This document shows, piece by piece, positions 1,958-26,923 of a stretch of DNA of 32,710 nucleotides. The stretch is taken from positions 1 to 32,710 of IMG/VR virus record IMGVR_UViG_2711768052_000004; one strand, given 5' to 3'. The stretch's first letter is position 1. Each line of letters starts with the position of its first letter. Both the position numbers and the translations under genes were made by a program. This stretch comes from a virus (Duplodnaviria > Heunggongvirae > Uroviricota > Caudoviricetes). The notes below the pieces were generated by a model that saw only the letters and a program-made list of their open reading frames with translations, was not told where the DNA came from and searched no databases.

Positions 1958-4405
1958 TTAACCGTCATGCATCATGCTGGCACGGGCGCGCGCACGTTTA
2001 TCCCGCTCGTATTTTTCGAGCGCATCCTGTAACTGGCGGTCAAGCTGTGTTCCCGGCGCAGTACCGCCCGTCAGGCTGATGTGATATTCGTTTTTACTCT
2101 GGTCCACATAAGAGCGGCCAGCCGGTGCCGTAACCGGCTGATAAGCCTGATAGCCTGCATAAGAGCTGGTCGCCGGAATATAACCACCGGTGCCATACGT
2201 GGCGGCTTGAGTTCTGGCGGCGGTCTGGTCAAGTGTGTCTGACTCTTTGTTGATAACACCGAGTTTTTCCAGTACCCAGTCAATGCCACTGCGCAGTTTG
2301 TTGAACGCATTAAGCGGCAGCATCAGCGCGTCAGCCAGTGCCTGCCCGAACATGACGCCCGTGTCACGGCAACGGTTCAGGGTGTCCTGGGTGGCTTTGA
2401 CCGGGGCAATCAGGTTTTTAAACCACTGCCACGCGGCCTGTAACTTTTCACCCAGCCAGTCAAACACCGGCTTCAGTGGCGTGAACAGTTCCCCCACCGG
2501 CGCAAATGCCGCTTTCAGCCCTTCAACCACACCGCCAAAGAATGCGCTGACAGGCTCCCAGTATTTACGGATAAGCAACGCCCCGGCGACAATGGCGGCC
2601 ACCACGGCCACAACCGGCCAGCTAATCGCCCCGATGGCCGTCATAACAGCACTGCTAACCGTCGTGAAGATTGCCCCCATTGCGCCTGCTGCCGCGATAA
2701 TGGCATTGATGCCAGTGATAACCGGCCAGGCTACAAGGCCAATGGCACCGATGATGCCAGTAAGCGCCAGTGCGCCACCGGCAATGAGGCCGATGGTTGA
2801 CGCCAGTGATTTATTTTTCTGTATCCAGCCGTCAAGTTTTAACACATACTTTGTGGCCGTCTGCGTGAGCTTACGCAGCGCGCCTTCCTGCTGGTCAAAC
2901 AGGTCAGTCCCCACCGCCTCATAAGCGGACTGAAACTCCTTAAAGTCACCGCCGAGGTTGTCCTGCATGATATTTACCAGCTCGGCGGTCTTCCCGTCTG
3001 AGGCTTTAAACGCAGCGGTCAGTTTGTCCAGCTTTCCGGTTGACGCGGCAGTCATCAGCACAGCGGCGGCTGAGCTGGCCTCCTCCCCGAAAATGGTTTT
3101 CATGTATTCGGCCTGCTGGGCAGTACCGAGCCGGTTTTTCTCAAAACTGGCCTGCATTTCTTTCAGAATGGTAAATACTGGTCGGGTGTTTCCCTTGCTG
3201 TCTGAGGTTTTCACACCAAGCTCTTTCAGTGCATCCCACGCTTTTCCCGTCGGTGCCTGCAGGCGGCTTAACACGGCACGGCTTCCCGTCCCCGCCATTG
3301 AGCCTGTGATTTTTGCATCATGCAGCGCCCCGACCATTGCGGCGGTTTCTTCAATGCTGACACCGGCATTTTTTGCCACAGGTGCGGCATAGGTCAGCGC
3401 ATCGCTCATGCCGTCAAAATTGGCGGCGGTTTTGTTCATCGTCATGGAGAGAACATCCCCGATATGAGCGACCTTATCGTTTGAAAGCTGAAAGGCAGAT
3501 TTCATCCCCATCAGCAGGGCGGCGTTTTCTTCCATCGTGCGGCGGTTCGCCAGCGCCATGTTCAGCGTGACCGGCGTTGCCGCCTGAATGGCATCAACAT
3601 CCCCACCGGCTTTCGCAATAATAATCTGCGCACCGGCTGCATCATCTGCCGAGGCGGCGGTATTGTCGCCGAGCTGGCGCGCCTGTTTGCGTAATGCGGC
3701 CATTTCGGCGGAGTCTTTTGCCACACCGAGCACAGCCTGCAATTCTGAGTTTTTCTGCGCAAACTCATAACCGGGCATCAGCAGCTTAACACCGGCCATC
3801 GTTCCCGCAGCAGCAATCCCCACACCGGCAGCGCCCACTGAGGCCATATTTCCGGCCAGTTCCTTTCCGGCCTGATAACGCTGTTTTACTGCGTTAAGTT
3901 TTGCCTGTTGTGCACTGACACGCGCCAGTGCGTCGCGCTGACGGTTAAGCTGTGCGGTGGTTTCACTGATACGGTTTTTCAGCCCCTGCTCATCATGTGC
4001 AAGATTGCGGGTATTAATTCCCACAGCGGCCAGTTCCCGCTGCTGGCGTTTAACGGAATCCGTCAGGCGGTTATATTTCGCCTGTAAGTCCTCCGCCGCT
4101 CGCTTTGCGGATTCCAACACTTTCGCCTGAGCACGGGTCGGTCGTTCGGTATTTTTAAACTGTGTGGCAAGGGCTTCGGCCTCCTGCCGTGCCTTTTCAA
4201 GTGCATGACCAGTCACGGCGAGCTGTGCACTGGTCTTGCGGAATCCCTCAATACGGGATGCGTGACCGTTCAGCTCGCGCAGTGATTTTTGTGTTTCCCG
4301 GATATCCCCCGACAGCGACTTACTCGCTGTGCGGATGGATTTAAACGGGCGGGATGCCTGGTCAACAGCCCTGAGCAATACCTGTAATTTTACATTGTTA
4401 CTCAT
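1958..4405 (-). CDS. T: Tail tape measure protein gpT (815 aa)
   Basis: 815-aa ORF, Ala/Gly-rich with coiled-coil N-terminus and hydrophobic central region; follows E/E' as in P2. Confidence 0.92.
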   Translation of the reverse strand: MSNNVKLQVLLRAVDQASRPFKSIRTASKSLSGDIRETQKSLRELNGHASRIEGFRKTSAQLAVTGHALEKARQEAEALATQFKNTERPTRAQAKVLESAKRAAEDLQAKYNRLTDSVKRQQRELAAVGINTRNLAHDEQGLKNRISETTAQLNRQRDALARVSAQQAKLNAVKQRYQAGKELAGNMASVGAAGVGIAAAGTMAGVKLLMPGYEFAQKNSELQAVLGVAKDSAEMAALRKQARQLGDNTAASADDAAGAQIIIAKAGGDVDAIQAATPVTLNMALANRRTMEENAALLMGMKSAFQLSNDKVAHIGDVLSMTMNKTAANFDGMSDALTYAAPVAKNAGVSIEETAAMVGALHDAKITGSMAGTGSRAVLSRLQAPTGKAWDALKELGVKTSDSKGNTRPVFTILKEMQASFEKNRLGTAQQAEYMKTIFGEEASSAAAVLMTAASTGKLDKLTAAFKASDGKTAELVNIMQDNLGGDFKEFQSAYEAVGTDLFDQQEGALRKLTQTATKYVLKLDGWIQKNKSLASTIGLIAGGALALTGIIGAIGLVAWPVITGINAIIAAAGAMGAIFTTVSSAVMTAIGAISWPVVAVVAAIVAGALLIRKYWEPVSAFFGGVVEGLKAAFAPVGELFTPLKPVFDWLGEKLQAAWQWFKNLIAPVKATQDTLNRCRDTGVMFGQALADALMLPLNAFNKLRSGIDWVLEKLGVINKESDTLDQTAARTQAATYGTGGYIPATSSYAGYQAYQPVTAPAGRSYVDQSKNEYHISLTGGTAPGTQLDRQLQDALEKYERDKRARARASMMHDG

Positions 4406-7060: not shown

Positions 7061-8500
7061 CTATGATTCACCATTTACCCTTTTATTCTCAGAGCAATAT
7101 AACCATTCAGAAACATTAATTATAGCCTCCGGATGCGAGTGTGTTGAGTGTATTAATATACCATCATTCTGTGGAGCAAATTTAATAACTTTATGATCTC
7201 CAGCTGGAGTTTCAGATGATGCAATAAAAACTTCCGGGCAAAATATTAATCGCAAATCTCCATAAGCTATGGCCTTAGCTACAGCCAACCAAAATGAAAA
7301 AATCGCAACTGGTATTGCTGCAATAAGTAAAACATGAGGAACATCCTTTGATGGTTTCAACCTTTGCCAAATGTGAGAAATAGAAGTTAATACAAAGCTT
7401 ACTAATAATACTATAATCCATGATTTTTCTTCAGGATAGAAGAACCATATTAATACACTCATGGAAATATAAAATAGGTAGCTTAAAACTGCTGACCAAT
7501 GTGTTAGCTTTTTATGACTTACTTGAGCTTTTTTTAGCTGGGAAAGAATTGCAAAACATCCTTCGTGAAGTGAACTTACAAATCTTAGGCCTGAATCGGC
7601 TTCATCACCAATTGCGTGATAAATTTCAACATTCCTAAAATCAACCGCTTCACAGTGCTCGCCACTCTCAACTTCCTGCAAAAATTCTTTTTTATATTTT
7701 TTGGAGATTATAATTTCTGCAAATATTGAAACAAAAAAAATTACTGCTGCATAATTAATATTATATAGATTCAAAGGTACAAAAAATACTGCAAGTAACA
7801 ATTGAATGGCCAAAGTTCCGCTAATATCAATAAGATTAATTAAAGCACCTGACGTTCTTTTTATCCTACGTCGAAAGATGAACGGTGGTGACAAAAGACA
7901 TACGCCTTGAATTTTTTTTGCAATATCACTTCGTAAATAAGACATTTCTCTTACAATAGCTGCCCCATGGCTATGTGCAATAATATAATTGTATTTTGCA
8001 GGAGAGTTATCAATATGCATTCCTAATTGATATGCCGCTTGTTTACGAGAGGATGCAGAGTTTTTGCCATCCCATTTAAATCGAGATATACCAATATTGG
8101 GATTCCTTGAGTTAATTGATTTGCACATTTTTGACTCAGGTTGTGTCCAAGATGCATTCGTCTCGAATGTTCCATGAACAAGGTGAACAATAACATCTTC
8201 TGATTCAGCATTAGCAATATCATTCACGGTTGTTGTTTTAGTCGAGTGGAATATAAAACGCCATGCCGTTGAAATCCCTTTTTGCCAGACAACATAATGG
8301 ACGAGTGCAACGATTAGTATTATTGCGACTGGAATAGTTACAAGGCCTATGGAAATAGTTTTAATTATATACTGAAGAACTCCTTTATTATGGGTGAAAA
8401 AATAATATGCTACAGAGGAAATAAAGAGCACTAGCATAGCCAACATTATCCCAGACAAGCCAAATAATATAATATATTTAATAAAATCGTGATTTCCCAT
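7061..8500 (-). CDS. Cargo protein (479 aa): polytopic membrane protein with a lipase/esterase-like domain; candidate defence effector
   Basis: Long AT-rich ORF in the G-FI slot; about seven hydrophobic helices by eye; soluble segment carries VHLVHGTFE and IIAHSHGAAIV (an A-x-S-x-G nucleophile-elbow-like pentapeptide); AAGG RBS upstream of ATG at 8498-8500. Confidence 0.8.
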   Translation of the reverse strand: MGNHDFIKYIILFGLSGIMLAMLVLFISSVAYYFFTHNKGVLQYIIKTISIGLVTIPVAIILIVALVHYVVWQKGISTAWRFIFHSTKTTTVNDIANAESEDVIVHLVHGTFETNASWTQPESKMCKSINSRNPNIGISRFKWDGKNSASSRKQAAYQLGMHIDNSPAKYNYIIAHSHGAAIVREMSYLRSDIAKKIQGVCLLSPPFIFRRRIKRTSGALINLIDISGTLAIQLLLAVFFVPLNLYNINYAAVIFFVSIFAEIIISKKYKKEFLQEVESGEHCEAVDFRNVEIYHAIGDEADSGLRFVSSLHEGCFAILSQLKKAQVSHKKLTHWSAVLSYLFYISMSVLIWFFYPEEKSWIIVLLVSFVLTSISHIWQRLKPSKDVPHVLLIAAIPVAIFSFWLAVAKAIAYGDLRLIFCPEVFIASSETPAGDHKVIKFAPQNDGILIHSTHSHPEAIINVSEWLYCSENKRVNGES

Positions 8501-8713
8501 TGAATTGCCTTCTATTTGGATAATCGATTATTTAACCTTTCGATTTTGTGGTTTCAACTTGAGGTTCAAACAAGAACATTGCTCGCTAGCAGTTATGAGT
8601 GAATCACTGTTAAGCGATCGTGATTTCAGCTATAGATGATCTGAACTACATGAATGCTGACTCACTAGCCTATTTTACATAATTGTGTGGATGTCTGCTA
8701 TTGGCACATAGCG

Positions 8714-8725
8714 GACTGTCAGATT
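8714..8725. repeat. Right arm of inverted repeat flanking the G-FI cargo gene (GACTGTCAGATT)
   Basis: Exact reverse complement of 6788-6799; lies in the G-to-cargo intergenic region. Confidence 0.6.
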
Positions 8726-8777
8726 AGGCTTTACTCTGTGCTATAGATATGTAAGCTCACACCAGAGATCATACAAC

Positions 8778-9305
8778 TTATTGCGGCATTTCCGGCCATT
8801 CGGGATTTGCAGGATCCACACGACTGACCAGAACGCTGTAGCGTTCCCATGCTTCCAGTCGGCTGCGTTCCTCATCCGTCGCCATATTCAGCCTGACAGC
8901 GCGTTCCAGCGGCAAAATCACGGATTCAGCTTCGGAAAGTAAAGCTGCCTTTTGTGATTCTGCCTGTTGCTCCTGTTCATCTGCCGTATAAATCCGCTTA
9001 ATCACGGCACCATCCTTAAACATCCATTTACCTGAGTCATCAGCACGTCGGTTGGAGGTAATATCAGGAACCTCGACAACGCTGAAACCTTCAGGGTTAA
9101 GCGTTGAAGCATCTCTGGTGATGCCGACAATTATATTATTCTCGTCGTAAACAATCTTTATCGTGTCTTCCTGAAAATTACTTACTTCCTCATACCAGTT
9201 TTTTCCCTCTTCGGACCATAACCAGATAACATCAAAATTTTTTGTCAGTTGATATTGGGCAACAGTTTTTGGATTACCCGCAGTAATATTTTTTAAATGC
9301 TGCAT
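8778..9305 (-). CDS. G: Tail fibre assembly protein gpG (175 aa)
   Basis: 175-aa ORF immediately downstream of H, as in P2. Confidence 0.88.
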
Positions 9306-9308
9306 AAA

Positions 9309-11354
9309 TTACACCTGTGCGACGTTATACCATGTGCCATTGATGTATTTTTGTATTGGCCTGAATACTGCGGGGTCATCACCATCGACTTCACCGACAA
9401 TACCAAGCCCGGTAATTACGTGCCCTGCTTTCTCATACATCACCCCTTTCTGCATGGTCTGGACAACACGTGTGCCAAGTCTGATATCTCTCACATAGCG
9501 GGAATCAAAGTTACCGTAATCCGAGGGATTAACACGCCCCGTAATATTTATGGTCTTATTACTTTGAATGCTTCCGGAAACAAAGCGCATAACATGGACG
9601 TTATTAGCATAAACATCCAGATTACCATCGCCATTTTGTTTAAATCCGGTGTCGTTATCACCAAGAACAATAGAGTTCCCACCCAACGCGTTATTCGTGC
9701 CAAGTGCCAGCCCGCCATCAATCCTGGCACCATTACCAACAGACACAACTCCTGTTCTTAAGTTGATGCCGAATGGCCTTAATGGCCCAATATCTCCATT
9801 TTCACCCTCATTTTCTCGTGTAGGAATGATATACAGGTTTTCTTCAGAACGGCGAAAAATAGCACCAAAAGATGAATTAAATATCCTCAGCGCATTGACT
9901 GTAGATATTTTTACTTCACTACTGAAAAGGGCTTTAACAAGAACATACAGAGCATCCCATTTAAGATTCATCAGGTCTTTTGTTGTGGTGCTCTGGCGAC
10001 TTCTCCATTTGAAATATTCATTGCCGTTGTCACCTGTTTCAAACCACATATATGAATCAGTATCGCTGTCGGCATCATTTTTAAATCCAATCTTTGCCCA
10101 GTCAGTATTTCGAATCCAGGCAAGGATTGAGTCGTTTTCAAAAGTAAGCCCGCCGGACAAGGTATCGCCATTTTTTTGCACGGCGTTCCCGGCCCTGTTT
10201 ACCGTTTCCTGTAAACCGAGATATTCGATAACGGCGGCAACGGTCGATTTAGCCAGAATATCCCGCCCGACTTTTGTCAGGGTCGCCAGGCTGGCAACAT
10301 CATTCCCCGTAAAATACGGAAACCTGTCTGCCGCAGTAGCAAGCCCCGCCAGCGCCGTCAAAGTGGCATCTTTCGGTTGCTTACCCGCAAGCGCATTAGT
10401 CATGGTGGTAGCAAAATTCGGGTCATTGCCCAGCGCCGCCGCCAGCTCGTTCAGCGTATTCAGTGCGTCAGGCGACGAGTCTACAAGGGCGGCAATCGCG
10501 GCCATAACGAAAGCCGTGTTTGCGATCTGAGTATTATTCGTTCCCTGTCGCGCAGTTGGCGTCGTTGGCGTTCCGGTCAGTGCAGGGCTGTTTAATGGCG
10601 CTTTCTTGTTCGTTTCATCCATTACCGTCTTAACGGCTTTTGGTGTTGCGGCGAGCGTTTCAGACATGCTGTTGGTCGCACTACTTAGCTGGACAAGACC
10701 TTTTCGCGCTGTGGTAGCGTCCTGTGCGGTATATTTCCCGTTAGCAAGGTCATATGCGGCCTTAACCGCTTTCGGCGTTGCGGCCAGTGTTTCAGACGTG
10801 CTGTTGGTCGCATTGCTTAACTGAGTAAAACCTTTTGCGGTCAGCGAGGCGTCCGGGTGACGTCGTGACTGTTCATGCTCTGCAATTTTGTCATCAACGT
10901 AATCCTGCGTCGCCATCACCGTTGTGGTGTCAATGGTCAGCTCCACTGAGGCCACACTGCTGACGATGATGACCATGCGACAGGTCTGCGAACGCCCTGA
11001 GCCTTCGGCAAGAGCTGGCTTATAACTTTCGGCCATGTTCGCCACGGCAATTAACGTTCCCGCATCATCGTACAGGCCAAGCTCACGCATCCAGAAGCCG
11101 CCCACCTCCGGCGGAATAACCAGCTCTGCGATAATATAATTACTGTTTCGTTTGTCCTGGCTGATTTTGTTCAGCGCATGTCGCCAGACTTCGTGGATAA
11201 GCCCGGTCTGTCCGGCATCCGGGACAGGCAATTTACCACCGCCATCCCCGACGGCCATCGTGGTAATGTTGACCTTCCGCCCTCCCGGTGCGGTTGCCGC
11301 TGCCAGCTTTGCTGCACCGGCAGTGGTGATAACGGTTTTGAATTTTGTGCTCAT
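9309..11354 (-). CDS. H: Tail fibre protein gpH (681 aa)
   Basis: 681-aa ORF rich in Ala/Thr/Gly/Asn with a repeated module; between I and G as in P2. Confidence 0.9.
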   Translation of the reverse strand: MSTKFKTVITTAGAAKLAAATAPGGRKVNITTMAVGDGGGKLPVPDAGQTGLIHEVWRHALNKISQDKRNSNYIIAELVIPPEVGGFWMRELGLYDDAGTLIAVANMAESYKPALAEGSGRSQTCRMVIIVSSVASVELTIDTTTVMATQDYVDDKIAEHEQSRRHPDASLTAKGFTQLSNATNSTSETLAATPKAVKAAYDLANGKYTAQDATTARKGLVQLSSATNSMSETLAATPKAVKTVMDETNKKAPLNSPALTGTPTTPTARQGTNNTQIANTAFVMAAIAALVDSSPDALNTLNELAAALGNDPNFATTMTNALAGKQPKDATLTALAGLATAADRFPYFTGNDVASLATLTKVGRDILAKSTVAAVIEYLGLQETVNRAGNAVQKNGDTLSGGLTFENDSILAWIRNTDWAKIGFKNDADSDTDSYMWFETGDNGNEYFKWRSRQSTTTKDLMNLKWDALYVLVKALFSSEVKISTVNALRIFNSSFGAIFRRSEENLYIIPTRENEGENGDIGPLRPFGINLRTGVVSVGNGARIDGGLALGTNNALGGNSIVLGDNDTGFKQNGDGNLDVYANNVHVMRFVSGSIQSNKTINITGRVNPSDYGNFDSRYVRDIRLGTRVVQTMQKGVMYEKAGHVITGLGIVGEVDGDDPAVFRPIQKYINGTWYNVAQV
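10629..10825. repeat. Imperfect tandem direct repeat inside H (two units of about 65 bp, period 132 bp)
   Basis: 10629-10692 and 10761-10825 are near-identical; they encode KGFTQLSNATNSTSETLAATPKAVK and KGLVQLSSATNSMSETLAATPKAVK. Confidence 0.8.
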
Positions 11355-12800: not shown

Positions 12801-13148
12801 TCAACTCACAGGGATGGTTAACGAAAGTGGCTGGCCGGTGTCGTTGTGCTGGCCGGTTAACGTGACCGTCATTCGCCCGTCAAAACTGCGCTCAGTGGTG
12901 ACGGATGACAGGGTGACGCGGGGTTCCCATTTCAGCACCGCCATGTAACAGGCGACCTTAATCTGCAACTCAAGCGCCGGGGTCTGCGGCTGGTCAATCA
13001 TTGACGCCAGCAATGAGCCGTAATCACGACGCATCACCCGTGAGCCGACCGGCGTGCGCAGGATATCGCCGATACTCTGGCTGATATGCTCAAGGTCAGT
13101 GACAGTCAGGCCATCACTGCGATTCATTCCAAGATAACGCGCTGTCAT
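12801..13148 (-). CDS. W: Baseplate protein gpW (115 aa)
   Basis: 115-aa ORF between V and J. Confidence 0.9.
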   Translation of the reverse strand: MTARYLGMNRSDGLTVTDLEHISQSIGDILRTPVGSRVMRRDYGSLLASMIDQPQTPALELQIKVACYMAVLKWEPRVTLSSVTTERSFDGRMTVTLTGQHNDTGQPLSLTIPVS

Positions 13149-13774
13149 AGAGGACTCCCGGTTGTGCCGCCGCTGTCGCCGGGGTGTTTATGGGTATGCA
13201 GTACCTTACCGTTTGATGAGAGTTCACCGCCGGTGTGTTCAATGTTGCCGCGCATCGTCCCGCCCTTCTGCACTTCCAGCGTGCCGGTAATCAGCCTGTT
13301 GGTGCAGACCACCTCCGGTGTGTCCAGGGTGATGCGGGTTGATGCTTTCACCATGACCACCGGCACCGTGGCAGTAACAGAATCAGAAGCCGTCACGCTG
13401 GCCGTTTTAATTCCGCTTACCATGAGTGCACTGGTTTCGGGTTCATATTCAATCACCGCCCCGTCAGGGAAACGGATATGCAGGGCATCCGCCGACGCAG
13501 ACGGCGCGGGGTTATCGCCGGAATAAATCCCCGGCAGAACGAACGCCGTGTCGAGTTCACCACCCACGGCCAGAATCAGCACCTGTTCCCCCACGGAAGG
13601 TGCCCACCATGTGCGCGAACGCCCGGCGCGATGGGTCAGCCACTGAAGCCAGTCGGTGCACATGCCGCCGGTCTGCACACGGCAGCGACCGGCATTAAGG
13701 TCGGTTTCGACGATAATGCCAGTGCGAATCATATTGCGTATAAAGCGAAGAATTTCATTGTATTGTGCATTCAT
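13145..13774 (-). CDS. V: Baseplate spike/hub protein gpV (209 aa from the chosen start)
   Basis: ORF track gives 235 aa; the Met of MNAQYNEILRFIRNMIRTGIIVETDLNAGRC (ATG at 13772-13774) matches the conserved gpV N-terminal region; stop overlaps W start. Confidence 0.85.
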   Translation of the reverse strand: MNAQYNEILRFIRNMIRTGIIVETDLNAGRCRVQTGGMCTDWLQWLTHRAGRSRTWWAPSVGEQVLILAVGGELDTAFVLPGIYSGDNPAPSASADALHIRFPDGAVIEYEPETSALMVSGIKTASVTASDSVTATVPVVMVKASTRITLDTPEVVCTNRLITGTLEVQKGGTMRGNIEHTGGELSSNGKVLHTHKHPGDSGGTTGSPL

Positions 13775-13860
13775 TCGATAATAATGATTCTGTACAATCT
13801 CGAAGTAAATCACACCACGATTTCTGGTGCACAGAACAACAAGGGACAACAAAATCCATT
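13775..13860. promoter_or_regulatory. Compressed divergent control region: expected late promoter P_V plus the cargo-gene promoter
   Basis: 86-bp spacer between divergently oriented V and the plus-strand cargo gene; plus-strand TACAAT at 13796-13801; P_V placement is positional inference from P2. Confidence 0.35.
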
Positions 13861-14934
13861 ATGAGTACTTACTTTTTCTCGTCAGAAACAATGAAAGAAT
13901 TGTTCAAAGATTATCTGGTCTTTTTGAACACGCTGACTCCCAGCACAAACTTTGAATCAAACAGAAACAAAATAATTGCTCAAGCAATAAACTTCATTTC
14001 CGAAAACCCTGAAGATTGGGACAAAAAATCCCAGTACAACATTGCTATGATTGGCGACACCTTTAAAAGTTTCTTAAGAGAGAAGGGAGAAGATAACAAC
14101 AGCATCAACCTTATATTCACTTGCTTTTTTAGATTTATCATTGAACCAAGCATTCTCTCTCCGGAAATAGAGTCTCACTTTTCACCACTAAGAACCATCA
14201 AGGATTTTGCTCTGTATAACTATAATGAATTCGATGAGCGGAGCAGAGCACAGATAGACTTTTCTCTTAGAGAACTGCCATTAGCAATGGTTAAAGAAGT
14301 TTTAAGCTCCAGCAATGTTGACACATATAAAAAATACATTGATAGTTTAAACGAAGGGCGTCAATTTTTCGAAAAGTGCGACTCCTTCTTAAAGGAGCAA
14401 CATGCCAAAATAGAGTCAATTAAAGAGTCATTAAAAGGGTATGAGGTCGCATTTAATTTTGTTGGATTGTTTGAAGGCTTTAATTCACTTGGCAAAAAGA
14501 AAGAAAGTGAAATCATGCTATCAAGAATAATTCTTATCATCTTGGCTATAATCATTCCCTCCCCGCTGATATACTATGGAATGCATAAATTACCAGCTCT
14601 CGAAACGACAAATGCTGCCACATATTTTATGTCAGCACTACCTTTTGCATCAGTTACATTGATTTTCATGTATTACTTTAGAGTTGTACTGCTAAATCAT
14701 ATATCGTTACGAACTCAGATTATGCAAATAGAACTCAGAAAGAGCCTTTGTCAGTTCATTCAGAGTTATAGCGACTATTCCTCAGAGATAAGGAAAAACA
14801 ATCCGGAAGCGCTTTCAAAATTCGAAGACGTAGTATTTTCAAACATCATGCTATCCGATGATAAGATACCATCTACATTTGATGGCATTGAGCAAATAGC
14901 ATCGTTAATCAATTCATTAAAAAATGGAAAGTAA
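13861..14934 (+). CDS. Cargo protein (357 aa from ATG 13861): soluble N-terminal domain plus two predicted TM helices; function unknown
   Basis: AT-rich ORF on the opposite strand to the flanking late genes, in the S-V slot; hydrophobic IMLSRIILIILAIIIPSPLIYYGM and ATYFMSALPFASVTLIFMYYFRVVLL; start is uncertain (in-frame ATGs at 13765, 13861, 13891). Confidence 0.75.
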   Translation: MSTYFFSSETMKELFKDYLVFLNTLTPSTNFESNRNKIIAQAINFISENPEDWDKKSQYNIAMIGDTFKSFLREKGEDNNSINLIFTCFFRFIIEPSILSPEIESHFSPLRTIKDFALYNYNEFDERSRAQIDFSLRELPLAMVKEVLSSSNVDTYKKYIDSLNEGRQFFEKCDSFLKEQHAKIESIKESLKGYEVAFNFVGLFEGFNSLGKKKESEIMLSRIILIILAIIIPSPLIYYGMHKLPALETTNAATYFMSALPFASVTLIFMYYFRVVLLNHISLRTQIMQIELRKSLCQFIQSYSDYSSEIRKNNPEALSKFEDVVFSNIMLSDDKIPSTFDGIEQIASLINSLKNGK

Positions 14935-14938
14935 TGAT

Positions 14939-14967
14939 AAAAGGCCAATAACTGGCCTTTTATTTAT
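14939..14967. terminator. Bidirectional rho-independent terminator between the cargo gene and S
   Basis: AAAAGGCCA-ATAAC-TGGCCTTTT followed by ATTTATT on the plus strand, with an A/T run on the other side. Confidence 0.7.
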
Positions 14968-15036
14968 TAACATTAAAATTCAAAATAAATTATGCTAATC
15001 AATTGATTTCTATCTTATATTCTCAGATGATTAAAG

Positions 15037-15489
15037 CTAACGATTCAGGTGAGCCAGGATAATCTCTTCAATCATCTGCACATCCTCACCGGTAAAGCCG
15101 AGCAGAGGACGCGCCGGATAATCAATTTTCTTACCGTCTTTCCGGGTTTCTTCCGACAGGCCGAACTGATGCACGCTGGCGATTTTCGGTGACTTCCCGC
15201 CGTAAAACTCCATTGATGCCTGTTCCGGGCTGGCGCGGATATGCAAAAAACGACTGGTGATAAGTTTCGCAAACATTTTTCGTTTAACACGACCAGTCTT
15301 TTTTCTGGCGCTCTGCTGCTGGCGTGGCGCGTAGGGTGTGCCGTCCGGGGCTTTCTGAGCCATCACCCGACGCTGCTGACTCTGCCGCAGACGTTTCGCC
15401 AGTTCGGCACTCAGTCGCCGACGCCCTGACGGTGACAGCGACTCAATCAGTCCGGTCAGCCGGTCTTCAAAACGCTTAAACTCATTCAT
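15037..15489 (-). CDS. S: Tail completion protein gpS (150 aa)
   Basis: 150-aa ORF downstream of R, as in P2. Confidence 0.9.
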   Translation of the reverse strand: MNEFKRFEDRLTGLIESLSPSGRRRLSAELAKRLRQSQQRRVMAQKAPDGTPYAPRQQQSARKKTGRVKRKMFAKLITSRFLHIRASPEQASMEFYGGKSPKIASVHQFGLSEETRKDGKKIDYPARPLLGFTGEDVQMIEEIILAHLNR

Positions 15490-24409: not shown

Positions 24410-25411
24410 TTATAATAATTTGTCCAGCCTAGCTGAAACAATACCTAGAACAACTGTTGAAACTATATTTACCACCACTCTTAAAATACTCTTCTTTCGC
24501 TTCTTACTATATTCATCATACAACCTCTCATCACCCTTATTTAATACAATGTACGATGCTGGAGTATAACCATCAATTAATCTCTCTAGGCCTTCACCTA
24601 AATGCTCCGCTAACAATGGGATAATAGAAAACGCACCAAGAAAGAGCATTAAAAATTTTACTAACCTTTCTTTATCACCAATATCAATATATTCACCAAC
24701 ATTGTACAGTGCATAACTTAAAATCAATATAGAAAAAGAAAACCGCATAATCAGTGGAATTAAATACGATATCCTTTGAGCTTGCTGTATCAATGGTATT
24801 TTGTTTGTAACTCTTTGACATCCTTCAACCCATTCTTTAAATGCTTCGATAAAACCTCTAGCCACTACATAATCAGCATATTCAACAACTATTTCTGCTG
24901 AACTGGTGAGCATGAATGCAACAAAACGCCCCCTAATGAAAGGTGGTGCATCTTCTTCCATTTCTTTCTGCATAGCAATTCTTGATGCTAATTTAACAGT
25001 AACTTCATAGTGGTTAGGTAATGATGCCCCTGTCGATAAAATTGCAAAGTTATATTTTAAAATTACACTAATTGTTGGACTACTTCCCGCACTACTCGAC
25101 ATTGCAAACTTATCAAAAGAGGTAAACTGTTCCTTTCTATCTTTTGAATGTAAAATAGTTACCGTTTCATTTTTCGATATAATATTATGAACATCACACA
25201 ATTGATTTATTTTTTGATGAACGCTTCTTATCTCATCGATATTTATAAGTAAATTCTCAGAGGTTCTCTGCCTTATTGTTTCTGTTGTTCCCGTTATATG
25301 TTGATAAATTTGCTGATAAATACGAATGCTAGTATTAATATCCCGAGAAGCAGGTAACCCACTATTAACCCCATTATTTTTTTCATTTGACTCATCAATT
25401 ATAATACTCAT
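24410..25411 (-). CDS. Cargo protein (333 aa): soluble N-terminal domain plus three C-terminal TM helices; function unknown; candidate defence effector
   Basis: AT-rich ORF between the cos-like site and Q; AGGA 5 nt upstream of ATG at 25409-25411; hydrophobic ISYLIPLIMRFSFSILILSYALY, LVKFLMLFLGAFSIIPLLAEHL, ILRVVVNIVSTVVLGIVSA. Confidence 0.8.
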   Translation of the reverse strand: MSIIIDESNEKNNGVNSGLPASRDINTSIRIYQQIYQHITGTTETIRQRTSENLLINIDEIRSVHQKINQLCDVHNIISKNETVTILHSKDRKEQFTSFDKFAMSSSAGSSPTISVILKYNFAILSTGASLPNHYEVTVKLASRIAMQKEMEEDAPPFIRGRFVAFMLTSSAEIVVEYADYVVARGFIEAFKEWVEGCQRVTNKIPLIQQAQRISYLIPLIMRFSFSILILSYALYNVGEYIDIGDKERLVKFLMLFLGAFSIIPLLAEHLGEGLERLIDGYTPASYIVLNKGDERLYDEYSKKRKKSILRVVVNIVSTVVLGIVSARLDKLL

Positions 25412-25890: not shown

Positions 25891-26820
25891 TCAAACCAGG
25901 CTTTTGCCTTGCTTCATTTTTTTAGATGAGTCTAAAAATTTGAAATTATCATTAGATGAAAATATTCTTTCTGCGGTATGCCGAATGACTGAAGTATTGA
26001 AGACCGCAGCCTGCTCCTCATTACAACTGAATACACCCTCATGACCATCAAACTCGCCCGCCAAAAGAAGGTTTTTTGATACTGGGAACAAAACTAAAGT
26101 GTCTTTTACACCAAACCCGGGGGAATAAGGGCCTCGTGCTAATTCAGGATTAGTCCACATTAAGCAAACTGGGTTATCTGAAGTTATAAATGACCCTTGC
26201 CCATCAGATATGGTCATAAGTGACCAGTTGCGTTGATGCAACAACTTGGTGATAACAGGTACACATTTCATTTCCATATCTATCATGAACTCTCTGATTA
26301 CATTGATTTCGAAATTATCCCCATCCACAAAATTTTTAATTTTTTCGTAAGCGAGATCATATGGCAAAGACTCACCCATTTCTTTCTCATAAGCTAATTT
26401 ACAATCGTCCCAACGCTCAGCCGAACTAACTGAGGATTTCATGATAAACTTTGCTATTTGTTTCAATGGAGATGATAAATGTTCTCGCTGAGCAGGCGTA
26501 CGTATTGCCAATAAGGAAATAAACTCCAGAATAACATCTTTGGTTTCGCCTGAAAACTCGCCCCCCTCCTCAAGTTTTCTTAAATGAGTAGCGACACTGC
26601 CTTCAAACTCTGCAAGAGAACTCTCGAGATAGTTTGGGTCAACTCCATCCAATTCTAATCGGTTGAAATCTCTAACCCCCCCGACATTGCGAGTATTACT
26701 CTCAAAAGTTTTGCGCTCCTTTAAATCTATTACAGTTAATTTTGATTTTTTCCCCCCATTACTTGTAAACCCTTTCAAATAACATTGGGATAAAAAATGA
26801 TGATGCCTTGCAACACTCAT
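25891..26820 (-). CDS. Cargo protein (309 aa from ATG 26820) with DUF4238-like N-terminal motif; candidate single-gene defence protein
   Basis: AT-rich ORF between A and the cos-like site (the P2 tin/old slot); N-terminus MSVARHHHFLSQCYLKGFT fits the H-x3-Q-x-YL-x2-F signature I associate with DUF4238; GGAG 6 nt upstream of the chosen ATG. Confidence 0.75.
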   Translation of the reverse strand: MSVARHHHFLSQCYLKGFTSNGGKKSKLTVIDLKERKTFESNTRNVGGVRDFNRLELDGVDPNYLESSLAEFEGSVATHLRKLEEGGEFSGETKDVILEFISLLAIRTPAQREHLSSPLKQIAKFIMKSSVSSAERWDDCKLAYEKEMGESLPYDLAYEKIKNFVDGDNFEINVIREFMIDMEMKCVPVITKLLHQRNWSLMTISDGQGSFITSDNPVCLMWTNPELARGPYSPGFGVKDTLVLFPVSKNLLLAGEFDGHEGVFSCNEEQAAVFNTSVIRHTAERIFSSNDNFKFLDSSKKMKQGKSLV

Positions 26821-26923
26821 ACTCAGCTCCGTTATGGCTATAATCGCATAAATAATAAGCACTTATATTGCAATCATCTAGTTAAATACACAATATTTAT
26901 GACTCCGAAATTTCATTAAATCA

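What the first reader, a model, noticed from the sequence alone, without database searches (positions are those of the whole stretch)
13861..14934. Opposite-strand AT-rich membrane protein inserted between tail genes S and V
The whole late region is on the minus strand except this one plus-strand gene, wedged between S and V at the P2 orf30 position. It is AT-rich against a GC-rich backbone and ends at a bidirectional terminator (14939-14967). It encodes a roughly 245-aa soluble domain, two TM helices and a roughly 70-aa C-terminal tail, with no family I recognise. Opposite-strand placement inside a late operon implies expression in the lysogen, as expected for lysogenic-conversion or defence cargo.
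Basis: partly seen in the sequence, partly recalled or inferred. Interest (0 to 1): 0.75.

Follow-up and report, generated by a model that had tools for sequence, protein, structure and literature searches.

The report
Uncharacterised membrane-protein cargo gene in P2 prophage
A P2-like E. coli prophage carries, in the known variable slot between tail genes S and V, a real, selected, self-contained AT-rich gene for a membrane-anchored protein of a widespread family of untested function, whose front half is swapped between otherwise near-identical phages as conflict (probably anti-phage) genes are.

Summary
A 357-aa ORF (13861..14934, + strand) lies between gpV and gpS of a P2-like prophage, at the position of P2 orf30. 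Its GC is 0.33-0.36 against 0.55-0.60 in the flanks, and it ends at a hairpin that folds on both strands. It is a real gene: dN/dS is 0.13 between E. coli alleles, 925 50%-identity clusters match it, and the fold is confident. It is accessory, present in 60 of 1571 E. coli genomes that have this junction.

It has no Pfam, PADLOC or NCBIfam match. It hits only PHROG 9373 (unknown function) and is unrelated to P2 Orf30.

Predicted topology is N-in/C-in. A variable cytoplasmic helical domain (1-150) is followed by a long helix, a two-helix membrane hairpin and a highly conserved C-terminal module.

In eight other Enterobacterales P2-like phages from seven genera, 36-45%-identical homologues occupy the same slot and orientation. 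Backbones 85-93% identical carry 45%-identical alleles, and one recombination breakpoint lies inside the gene, so the N-terminal part is swapped while the C-terminal module is kept. Outside P2 it is a lone AT-rich gene in several phyla with no conserved partner.

Best reading, not shown: a prophage-expressed single-gene phage-exclusion protein with a variable sensor and a conserved membrane effector. Expression, phenotype and mechanism are all untested. Moderate interest.

The parts
13739..13774 (-). First ~12 codons of gpV, which differ from P2 and Wphi. This is the left edge of the exchanged cassette.
   Evidence: Alignment of the window with P2 and Wphi: identity ends just after window 13738 and V starts at 13774. 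The V protein is otherwise 92-94% identical to P2 and Wphi.
13821..13838 (-). Probable late-activator (Ogr-type) site of the pV promoter, TGT-N12-AAA, starting 64 nt upstream of the V start codon.
   Evidence: Found by eye at the same distance (64-65 nt) as TGT-N11/12-ACA sites in P2 and in loci L001 and L007. The P2 record annotates an activator-binding site at the equivalent place. The match is imperfect and function is inferred.
13770..13798 (+). Candidate sigma-70 promoter of the cargo gene: TTCATT, 17 nt, TACAAT. It overlaps the V start codon.
   Evidence: Found by eye only. The consensus scan reported no + strand site upstream of the ATG. The -10-like TACAAT is unchanged in the allele whose 1801-bp region is 93.9% identical. 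Weak evidence.
13861..14934 (+). Cargo CDS of 357 aa, PHROG 9373, no known function.
   Evidence: ORF. dN/dS 0.13 between two E. coli alleles. 925 50%-identity clusters at E <= 1e-3, listed hits mostly about 350-370 aa. PHROG hit. No Pfam, PADLOC or NCBIfam match.
13861..14310 (+). N-terminal cytoplasmic helical domain, residues 1-150. It is variable; only F6, W53, D54 and E95 are invariant.
14311..14508 (+). Long linker helix (residues 151-198) followed by a conserved helix just before the membrane (residues 199-216, NFVGL..GF..LG..K).
   Evidence: AF2 gives a continuous helix 156-231. In the pre-membrane helix, conservation repeats with helical periodicity (about 98 degrees per residue), and the majority-residue frequency is 0.68.
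14512..14694 (+). Membrane hairpin: TM1 residues 218-241, a 12-residue loop, TM2 residues 254-278.
   Evidence: Kyte-Doolittle 19-residue windows reach 2.4 and 1.8. The loop is the least conserved segment (0.23). Mean K+R is 3.0 before TM1, 0.9 in the loop and 4.1 after TM2, which by the positive-inside rule predicts N-in/C-in.
14695..14931 (+). Conserved cytoplasmic C-terminal module, residues 279-357, with motifs QIELRKSLCQFIQSY, KFE..FSNIM and KIPSTFDG.
   Evidence: Majority-residue frequency 0.69-0.75, with 24 of the gene's 38 invariant columns in these 79 residues. An HMM of residues 199-357 (which includes this module) hits all 31 homologues at 1e-30 to 1e-79. The last 27 residues have pLDDT below 50 although they include the invariant PSTFDG motif.
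14937..14963 (.). Bidirectional intrinsic-terminator hairpin, serving the cargo gene on + and the O operon ending in S on -.
   Evidence: Terminator scan. RNA folds on both strands, z about -4.2. P2 annotates an O-operon terminator at the equivalent place.
14964..15036 (.). AT-rich non-coding tail of the cassette, up to the gpS stop codon. This is the right edge of the exchanged cassette.
   Evidence: Homology to P2 and Wphi resumes at about 15033. No Rfam match.

Best explanation
The region from about 13739 to 15036 is a self-contained accessory cassette (a 'moron') in the S-V (orf30) variable slot of a P2-like prophage. It brings its own V 5' end and pV promoter region, one gene and a two-way terminator.

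The gene encodes an inner-membrane protein with both ends in the cytoplasm. It has a fast-evolving N-terminal helical domain that is exchanged by recombination, a long helix, a two-helix membrane hairpin, and a strongly conserved C-terminal module.

The most likely function is a stand-alone phage-exclusion protein made by the prophage. In this model the variable N-terminal domain recognises a component or effect of an infecting phage. The conserved membrane module then assembles and disturbs the inner membrane (depolarisation or leak), which stops the infection in an abortive-infection manner.

Shown: the gene is real, selected, accessory, mobile, membrane-anchored and modular.

Inferred: expression in the lysogen, the anti-phage role, the sensor/effector split and the membrane-damage step.
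For: Real and selected:
- dN/dS is 0.13 between two E. coli alleles.
- 925 clusters match, and the listed hits have a uniform length of mostly 350-370 aa.
- The fold is confident.

Accessory:
- 60 of 1571 E. coli genomes with the V-S junction carry it. The others are empty or carry orf30.

Cassette features:
- Low GC and its own bidirectional terminator.
- Junctions lie inside the V 5' end and at the S stop codon.
- The same prophage carries the validated defence gene Rst_DUF4238 in the old/tin slot (PMC9122126).
- The orf30 region is one of three recognised horizontally acquired regions of P2-like phages (PMC3091744).

Conflict-type evolution:
- Homologues occupy the same slot and orientation in Yersinia, Erwinia, Pectobacterium, Enterobacter, Kosakonia, Pantoea and Citrobacter phages.
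- Cargo identity stays at 0.32-0.45 however similar the backbones are. L004 and L047 have V 93%, W 91%, S 85% but cargo 45%.
- Between L004 and L047, nucleotide homology resumes inside the gene at about codon 260.
- N-domain identity is 0.33-0.35 against 0.55-0.58 for the C-module.
- The C-module HMM hits all 31 homologues, while the N-domain HMM fails in 6.

Mobility:
- The gene has GC 0.25-0.43 and is AT-rich relative to its flanks in 29 of 30 loci across several phyla.
- A distant homologue is a lone opposite-strand gene in a Klebsiella phage-plasmid.
- No conserved partner gene exists, so it acts alone.
- Some loci adjoin RM, KAP NTPase or AriA-like ATPase genes.

Topology:
- N-in/C-in, so both conserved parts face the cytoplasm, where a phage trigger would be met.
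Against: - There is no similarity to any known defence protein (PADLOC) or to any Pfam family, including 2TM effector families.
- No informative structural relative was found.
- Outside P2 phages most neighbours are housekeeping genes, and only a handful of 28 loci have a defence-type gene within three genes. That is little above expectation.
- The consensus scan found no promoter for the gene, so expression in the lysogen is unproven.
- The S-V slot has few alleles in E. coli (empty, orf30, this gene), unlike the hyper-diverse validated P2 defence hotspots (PMC9122126).
- Low GC that persists in every host could reflect amino-acid composition or silencing rather than recent transfer.
- Allele swapping also occurs in genes under other kinds of conflict, such as immunity to bacteriocins.
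Confidence: 0.42

Rival explanations
1. It is a non-abortive superinfection-exclusion protein. It sits in the inner membrane and blocks genome entry or ejection of incoming phages, in the way of T4 Imm, P22 SieA or HK97 gp15, without harming the cell.
For: It is a prophage-borne inner-membrane protein that stands alone. P2 Orf30 in the same slot is also a multi-pass membrane protein of a different family, so the slot may favour membrane-acting exclusion genes.
Against: The only periplasm-facing part is a 12-residue loop that is the least conserved segment. The conserved and the variable parts both face the cytoplasm, which fits sensing after entry better than blocking entry. There is no similarity to known Sie or Imm proteins.
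Confidence: 0.15
2. It is a lysogenic-conversion or host-fitness gene unrelated to phages, for example immunity to a tailocin or bacteriocin, envelope-stress tolerance, or a membrane signalling role.
For: In most non-P2 loci it is a solitary gene among housekeeping genes. In four loci it follows a two-component sensor kinase gene. No defence signature was found. Swapping of specificity domains is also typical of immunity and toxin systems.
Against: It has no conserved partner such as a toxin or transporter. It is repeatedly housed in phages and a phage-plasmid as a lone opposite-strand insert. Divergent alleles turn over rapidly between near-identical phages, and the same prophage carries a validated defence gene.
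Confidence: 0.2
3. It is an accessory gene for the phage's own lytic cycle or counter-defence, for example modulating lysis timing, supporting tail assembly near the membrane, or inhibiting a host defence.
For: It sits next to lysis and tail genes. It is stably associated with the S-V slot across seven genera of P2-like phages. Its candidate promoter overlaps the late pV promoter.
Against: It is absent from the great majority of E. coli P2-like prophages and from P2 and Wphi themselves, so it is dispensable. It is on the strand opposite to the late operons and has no recognisable late-activator site of its own. It also occurs in chromosomal, non-phage contexts in distant phyla.
Confidence: 0.1
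4. It is a spurious ORF or a decaying remnant in AT-rich spacer DNA.
For: No curated family matches. A truncated 201-aa allele circulates.
Against: dN/dS is 0.13. Hundreds of full-length homologues exist with 38 invariant columns. The predicted fold is confident.
Confidence: 0.01

Closest known systems
P2 orf30 (nonessential gene between S and V of phage P2)
   Same: Same slot, same opposite orientation, AT-rich, followed by the O-operon terminator, and it starts about 85 bp from the V start codon. It is also a predicted multi-pass membrane protein of unknown function.
   Different: No detectable sequence or profile similarity (BLASTP E > 1; hhalign probability 0.2%). Orf30 is 261 aa with hydrophobic segments at the N-terminus, middle and C-terminus, against 357 aa with a central hairpin here.
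Phage 'morons' (autonomous transcription units inserted between genes of a phage late region, as defined by Hendrix and colleagues; from my own knowledge)
   Same: It is inserted between two late transcription units, has a deviant base composition and its own terminator, and is absent from close relatives.
   Different: Its own promoter and its expression from the prophage are not demonstrated.
Validated P2 defence-hotspot cargo (old/tin slot and Z/fun slot; e.g. Rst_DUF4238, PD-T4/PD-lambda systems)
   Same: AT-rich accessory cargo in a fixed slot of P2-like prophages, exchanged between near-identical phages (PMC9122126, PMC9519451, PMC13586616).
   Different: It lies in a different slot that has few alleles in E. 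coli. It matches no PADLOC model, and no phenotype data exist.
Single-protein membrane-anchored abortive-infection proteins of prophages (e.g. PdpSau of S. aureus prophages, PMC10127798)
   Same: A prophage-encoded, stand-alone, membrane-anchored protein. This is the kind of mechanism proposed here.
   Different: The analogy rests on the paper's abstract only. I did not compare the sequences, and the function of the present protein is untested.
Four-helix-bundle membrane-executioner domains (plant NLR CC domains, MLKL N-terminal domain, HeLo-like)

Membership tests
PHROG 9373 (phage protein family, unknown function) | Full-length match to the family profile | tested here: met
   E = 8.6e-134, residues 13-356 against profile positions 7-387 of 388.
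P2 Orf30 family | Sequence or profile similarity to P2 Orf30 | tested here: not met
   BLASTP best E = 1.6. hhalign probability 0.2%.
P2 Orf30 family | Position and orientation between S and V | tested here: met
   Same slot and strand as in the P2 record.
Phage moron | Inserted between genes of a phage late region and absent from close relatives | tested here: met
   Wphi and most E. coli P2-like prophages have an empty slot; in Wphi the V-S intergenic region is 66 bp.
Phage moron | Base composition different from the surrounding phage genome | tested here: met
   GC 0.33-0.36 against 0.55-0.60.
Phage moron | Own terminator | tested here: met
   Hairpin at 14937-14963 with T-runs on both strands, z about -4.2.
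Phage moron | Own promoter | tested here: inconclusive
   The consensus scan found none upstream. The only candidate, TTCATT-17-TACAAT at 13770-13798, was found by eye, and its -10 element is conserved in a diverged allele.
Phage moron | Expressed from the repressed prophage | not testable with these tools
   Needs RNA-seq or 5'-RACE of a lysogen.
Known anti-phage defence systems (PADLOC-DB v2.0.0) | Match to a model of a known or candidate defence protein | tested here: not met
   No families at E <= 1. The database dates from 2023, so later systems are not covered.
Known anti-phage defence systems | Protection against phage infection | not testable with these tools
   Needs phage-challenge assays.
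Known anti-phage defence systems | Enrichment next to known defence genes | tested here: inconclusive
   In P2 phages it shares the element with Rst_DUF4238. In the 28 non-P2 loci scanned, only a few have RM, KAP NTPase, AriA-like or JukA-like neighbours within three genes, and the rest are housekeeping genes.
Pfam 2TM effector, holin or other membrane families | Match to any Pfam-A model at or near the gathering score | tested here: not met
   Best hit is DUF3810 at E = 0.027 (14 bits against a cut-off of 28). No family recurs among the 32 members scanned.
Core P2 structural or lysis proteins | Conserved presence in P2-like phages | tested here: not met
   Present in 60 of 1571 E. coli genomes with the junction, and absent from P2 and Wphi.
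CC / MLKL / HeLo four-helix-bundle executioner domains | Significant structural similarity of the N-terminal domain | tested here: inconclusive

The most novel reading that the evidence does not exclude
The gene founds an undescribed, widely transferred family of single-protein, membrane-anchored anti-phage effectors. A recombination-swappable N-terminal helical sensor, possibly related to the CC/MLKL-type four-helix bundles of eukaryotic cell-death executioners, controls a conserved two-helix membrane module with an invariant KIPSTFDG tail. On this reading the S-V (orf30) slot is a third functional defence locus of P2-like phages, one dedicated to membrane-acting exclusion genes.
Probability: 0.3. 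Interest if true: 0.65.

Novelty: new member of a known kind. Interest (0 to 1): 0.45.

Why it matters
The two main variable slots of P2-like prophages have been a rich source of new anti-phage systems. The third classical variable region, orf30 between S and V, has not been examined functionally in the papers I could read.

This gene gives that slot a concrete, testable candidate. It is a single 1.07-kb gene with no partner. About 4% of E. coli P2-like prophages carry it, and it belongs to a family of more than 900 sequence clusters across several phyla that has no Pfam or defence annotation.

Its architecture suggests direct experiments. Natural alleles keep the C-terminal membrane module and exchange the N-terminal domain, so swapping N-domains should change specificity if it is a sensor.

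If it is not a defence gene, it is still one of the more widespread uncharacterised membrane-protein families carried by temperate phages.

Tried and rejected
- **Sequence families.** Pfam, NCBIfam and PADLOC scans of the protein found nothing. A Pfam scan of all 32 alignment members found no recurrent weak hit.
- **Solved structures by sequence.** A profile search of PDB sequences gave only chance coiled-coil matches at E >= 0.12.
- **Homology to P2 Orf30.** Rejected.
- **Conserved partner gene.** Clustering all neighbour ORFs of 37 loci found none. The recurring clusters were ABC transporters and two-component systems, present in at most six loci.
- **Domain fusions.** A search of the 5.8-billion-protein set with the C-module profile returned only fragments and short forms with no added Pfam domains.
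- **Co-divergence with the phage backbone.** Rejected. Cargo identity is flat at 0.32-0.45 and only weakly correlated with backbone identity (Spearman 0.38).
- **Non-coding RNA in the cassette.** No Rfam match.
- **Literature.** Searches for accession numbers and the PHROG id found no paper. Brenes & Laub 2025 (Cell Host Microbe), a screen of E. coli prophage genes, could not be read.
- **Longer GTG start at 13765.** Rejected, because it overlaps gpV and the extension has no counterpart in homologues.

Full report
**What is there**

The window is a P2-like (Peduovirus) prophage. The flanks of the finding are 95-97% identical to phage P2 and its relatives. The neighbouring ORFs are gpV, W, J, I on one side and gpS, R and the lysis genes on the other, all on the minus strand.

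Between gpV (13145..13774; the longer TTG ORF over-extends it) and gpS (15037..15489) lies one + strand ORF. From the ATG at 13861 it encodes 357 aa and stops at 14934. The family alignment has an invariant Phe at residue 6, upstream of the Met-11 start that RefSeq uses in one genome. RefSeq itself uses 13861 in another allele, so 13861 is the better start.

GC falls from 0.55-0.60 to 0.33-0.36 across 13750-15000. Three bases after the stop codon there is a GGCC-stem hairpin (14937-14963) flanked by A-runs and T-runs. It folds on both strands with z of about -4.2. It occupies the place of the annotated O-operon terminator of P2.

- The soluble N-terminal part is about 217 aa, not about 245 aa.
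- The P/Q late operon is also on the + strand.
- The gene lies in the gap between two late operons, not inside one.
- The family is catalogued as PHROG 9373, function unknown.

**The cassette and the slot**

Compared with P2 and with Wphi, which has an empty 66-bp V-S spacer, homology stops inside gpV about 12 codons from its start. It resumes at the gpS stop codon.

The exchanged unit (about 13739-15036) therefore carries the V 5' end, the pV promoter region, the gene and the terminator. A TGT-N12-AAA element lies 64 nt upstream of the V start codon, the same distance as TGT-N11/12-ACA activator-type sites in P2 and two related phages. The late promoter of V thus seems to be retained.

The consensus scan finds no sigma-70 promoter for the cargo gene. 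By eye there is TTCATT-17-TACAAT at 13770-13798, overlapping the V start codon, and its -10 element is unchanged in a diverged allele. That is weak evidence, and expression in the lysogen remains unproven.

Among 5426 complete E. coli genomes, 1571 have this V-S junction and 60 carry this gene. An evenly spaced sample of the rest shows mostly empty slots and orf30-type inserts.

Published work already names the orf30 region as one of three regions of P2-like phages that hold horizontally acquired genes (PMC3091744). Phage R18C has yet another ORF there (PMC6823313). The P2 defence hotspots tested so far are the A-Q (old/tin) and Z/fun slots (PMC9122126, PMC9519451). A 2026 survey notes a defence hotspot within the tail genes (PMC13586616).

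P2 Orf30 itself is an unrelated 261-aa protein with three hydrophobic segments.

**The gene is real and accessory**

- Two E. coli alleles differ at 77 nucleotides and 27 residues, giving dN/dS of 0.13.
- A profile search of 1.84 billion representative proteins finds 925 clusters at E <= 1e-3. Of these, 668 are at E <= 1e-30, and the listed hits are mostly full-length proteins of about 350-370 aa.
- Every source that gives a name calls it 'hypothetical protein' or 'uncharacterized protein'.

**The protein**

There are no Pfam, NCBIfam or PADLOC matches, neither for this protein nor recurrently among 32 relatives.

AlphaFold2 predicts an all-helical protein with mean pLDDT 78.5. The N-terminal 152 residues modelled alone give pLDDT 93 and pTM 0.89, with seven helices. 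A long helix (156-231) runs into the first hydrophobic segment. A second long helix (252-313) starts with the second hydrophobic segment.

Hydropathy places the membrane helices at 218-241 and 254-278, joined by a 12-residue loop. That loop is the least conserved part of the protein. Lys and Arg cluster before TM1 and after TM2, so by the positive-inside rule both large parts face the cytoplasm.

Conservation is lopsided. The N-domain and linker have a majority-residue frequency of about 0.42, with only F6, W53, D54 and E95 invariant. From residue 199 onwards it is 0.63-0.75 apart from TM1 (0.49) and the loop (0.23), and the motifs FNFVGL..GF..LG..K, YYFR, QIELRKSLCQFIQSY, KFE..FSNIM and KIPSTFDG lie here. 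The last 27 residues have low model confidence although they include the invariant PSTFDG motif, which suggests a contact that a monomer model cannot show.

**Distribution and evolution**

In Enterobacterales the family is tied to the same slot. Homologues that are 36-45% identical sit between V and S, in the same orientation, in:
- a Yersinia phage;
- Erwinia and Pectobacterium genomes;
- Enterobacter, Kosakonia, Pantoea and Citrobacter genomes.

This is not co-divergence with the phage. Pairwise cargo identity stays at 0.32-0.45 whatever the backbone identity:
- L004 and L047 have V 93%, W 91% and S 85% identical, but cargo only 45%.
- L044 and L048 have V 82%, W 88% and R 90% identical, but cargo only 40%.

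Between L004 and L047, nucleotide homology ends 83 bp upstream of the gene and resumes inside it at about codon 260. The promoter region, N-domain and first membrane helix were therefore exchanged, while the C-terminal module stayed with the backbone. In agreement, an HMM of the C-module recognises all 31 homologues examined (1e-30 to 1e-79), whereas an HMM of the N-domain fails on six of them.

Outside P2-like phages the family occurs in Gamma- and Betaproteobacteria, Geobacter relatives, Nitrospirales and Bacteroidota.
- It is always a single gene with no conserved neighbour.
- It has GC 0.25-0.43 and is AT-rich relative to its flanks in 29 of 30 loci.
- A distant relative is a lone opposite-strand gene between replication genes of a Klebsiella phage-plasmid.
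- Neighbours are mixed. A few loci have RM, KAP NTPase or AriA-like ATPase genes next door. In one Vibrio locus the KAP NTPase gene overlaps the homologue by 8 nt.
- Most neighbours, however, are housekeeping genes.

**Interpretation**

Shown:
- It is a genuine, selected, dispensable, mobile, one-gene cassette.
- It encodes an inner-membrane hairpin protein with cytoplasmic ends.
- Its N-terminal part is exchanged between alleles while the C-terminal membrane module is kept.

Inferred: this pattern is what is seen in proteins that pair a specificity or sensor domain with a fixed effector. It combines a fixed locus in a temperate phage, rapid allele replacement between near-identical phages, a variable recognition-like domain on a conserved module, and solitary AT-rich copies scattered across phyla.

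The element's other cargo includes the validated defence gene Rst_DUF4238 (PMC9122126). Taken together, the most likely role is a prophage-expressed single-gene phage-exclusion protein that acts at the inner membrane after cytoplasmic sensing. I put this at about 0.4.

The rivals are:
- non-abortive blocking of genome entry, which the tiny unconserved periplasmic loop makes less likely;
- a membrane function unrelated to phages, which the mostly housekeeping neighbourhoods outside phages do not exclude;
- an accessory role in the phage's own cycle, which is unlikely given the gene's absence from most relatives and its presence outside phages.

A spurious ORF is excluded.

**Novelty and interest**

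The slot and the general phenomenon (AT-rich acquired genes at orf30) are known. The gene is catalogued but uncharacterised.

It is best filed as a new member of a known kind: accessory cargo of a P2 variable region and a candidate defence gene. It is a well-defined and cheap experimental target, and the interest is moderate.

Noticed in passing
window 25891-26862 (-) and 24410-25411 (-): The old/tin slot between gpQ and gpA is AT-rich (GC 0.33-0.39). It holds a DUF4238 protein matching the validated defence gene Rst_DUF4238 (PADLOC E = 1.8e-219), plus a 333-aa ORF with no Pfam or PADLOC match.
   Followed up: partly
window 7061-8500 (-): The Z/fun slot is also AT-rich (GC 0.33-0.37). It holds a 479-aa ORF with no Pfam or PADLOC match, a second uncharacterised cargo gene in a slot known to carry defence genes.
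   Followed up: partly
window 8400-10200: The tail-fibre assembly gene and the 3' half of the tail-fibre gene H have intermediate GC (0.42) against 0.55 for the 5' half. This suggests an exchanged host-range module.
   Followed up: no
window 13739-13774: The first ~12 codons of gpV differ from P2 and Wphi and travel with the cargo cassette, so cassette exchange rewrites the N-terminus of an essential baseplate protein.
   Followed up: partly
window 13861 vs 13891: RefSeq annotates the same gene from Met-11 (347 aa, WP_249962873.1) in one genome and from Met-1 (357 aa, WP_087904339.1) in another. Family conservation of Phe-6 supports the longer form.
   Followed up: yes
protein cluster P0004 (E. 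coli): A 201-aa truncated allele (56 deposited sequences, 99% identical) ends at ...AFNFG, just before the membrane module. This could be a circulating loss-of-function variant.
   Followed up: no
L007:7097-7729 (-), Pectobacterium zantedeschiae: Here the S-V slot holds the homologue plus a second gene, a 210-aa ORF6N-domain protein with a weak PDC-S05 PADLOC hit. The slot can therefore hold more than one cargo gene.
   Followed up: partly
L021:1325-2851 and 2844-3956, Vibrio brasiliensis: A KAP-family P-loop NTPase gene overlaps the start of the homologue by 8 nt on the same strand. This may be a two-gene operon in that lineage.
   Followed up: no
L043:3072-4238 (+), Klebsiella phage-plasmid pJN2-26: A distant homologue (388 aa; C-module HMM E = 2e-30, N-domain not recognisable) is a lone opposite-strand gene between DNA primase/helicase genes and a ligase operon. 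This repeats the 'wedged-in' layout seen in P2.
   Followed up: partly
L004 vs L047 (Erwinia MAG vs Pantoea sp.): Nucleotide homology between these two P2-like prophages breaks 83 bp upstream of the cargo gene and resumes inside it at about codon 260. The conserved C-terminal module therefore acts as a recombination site for swapping N-terminal parts.
   Followed up: yes
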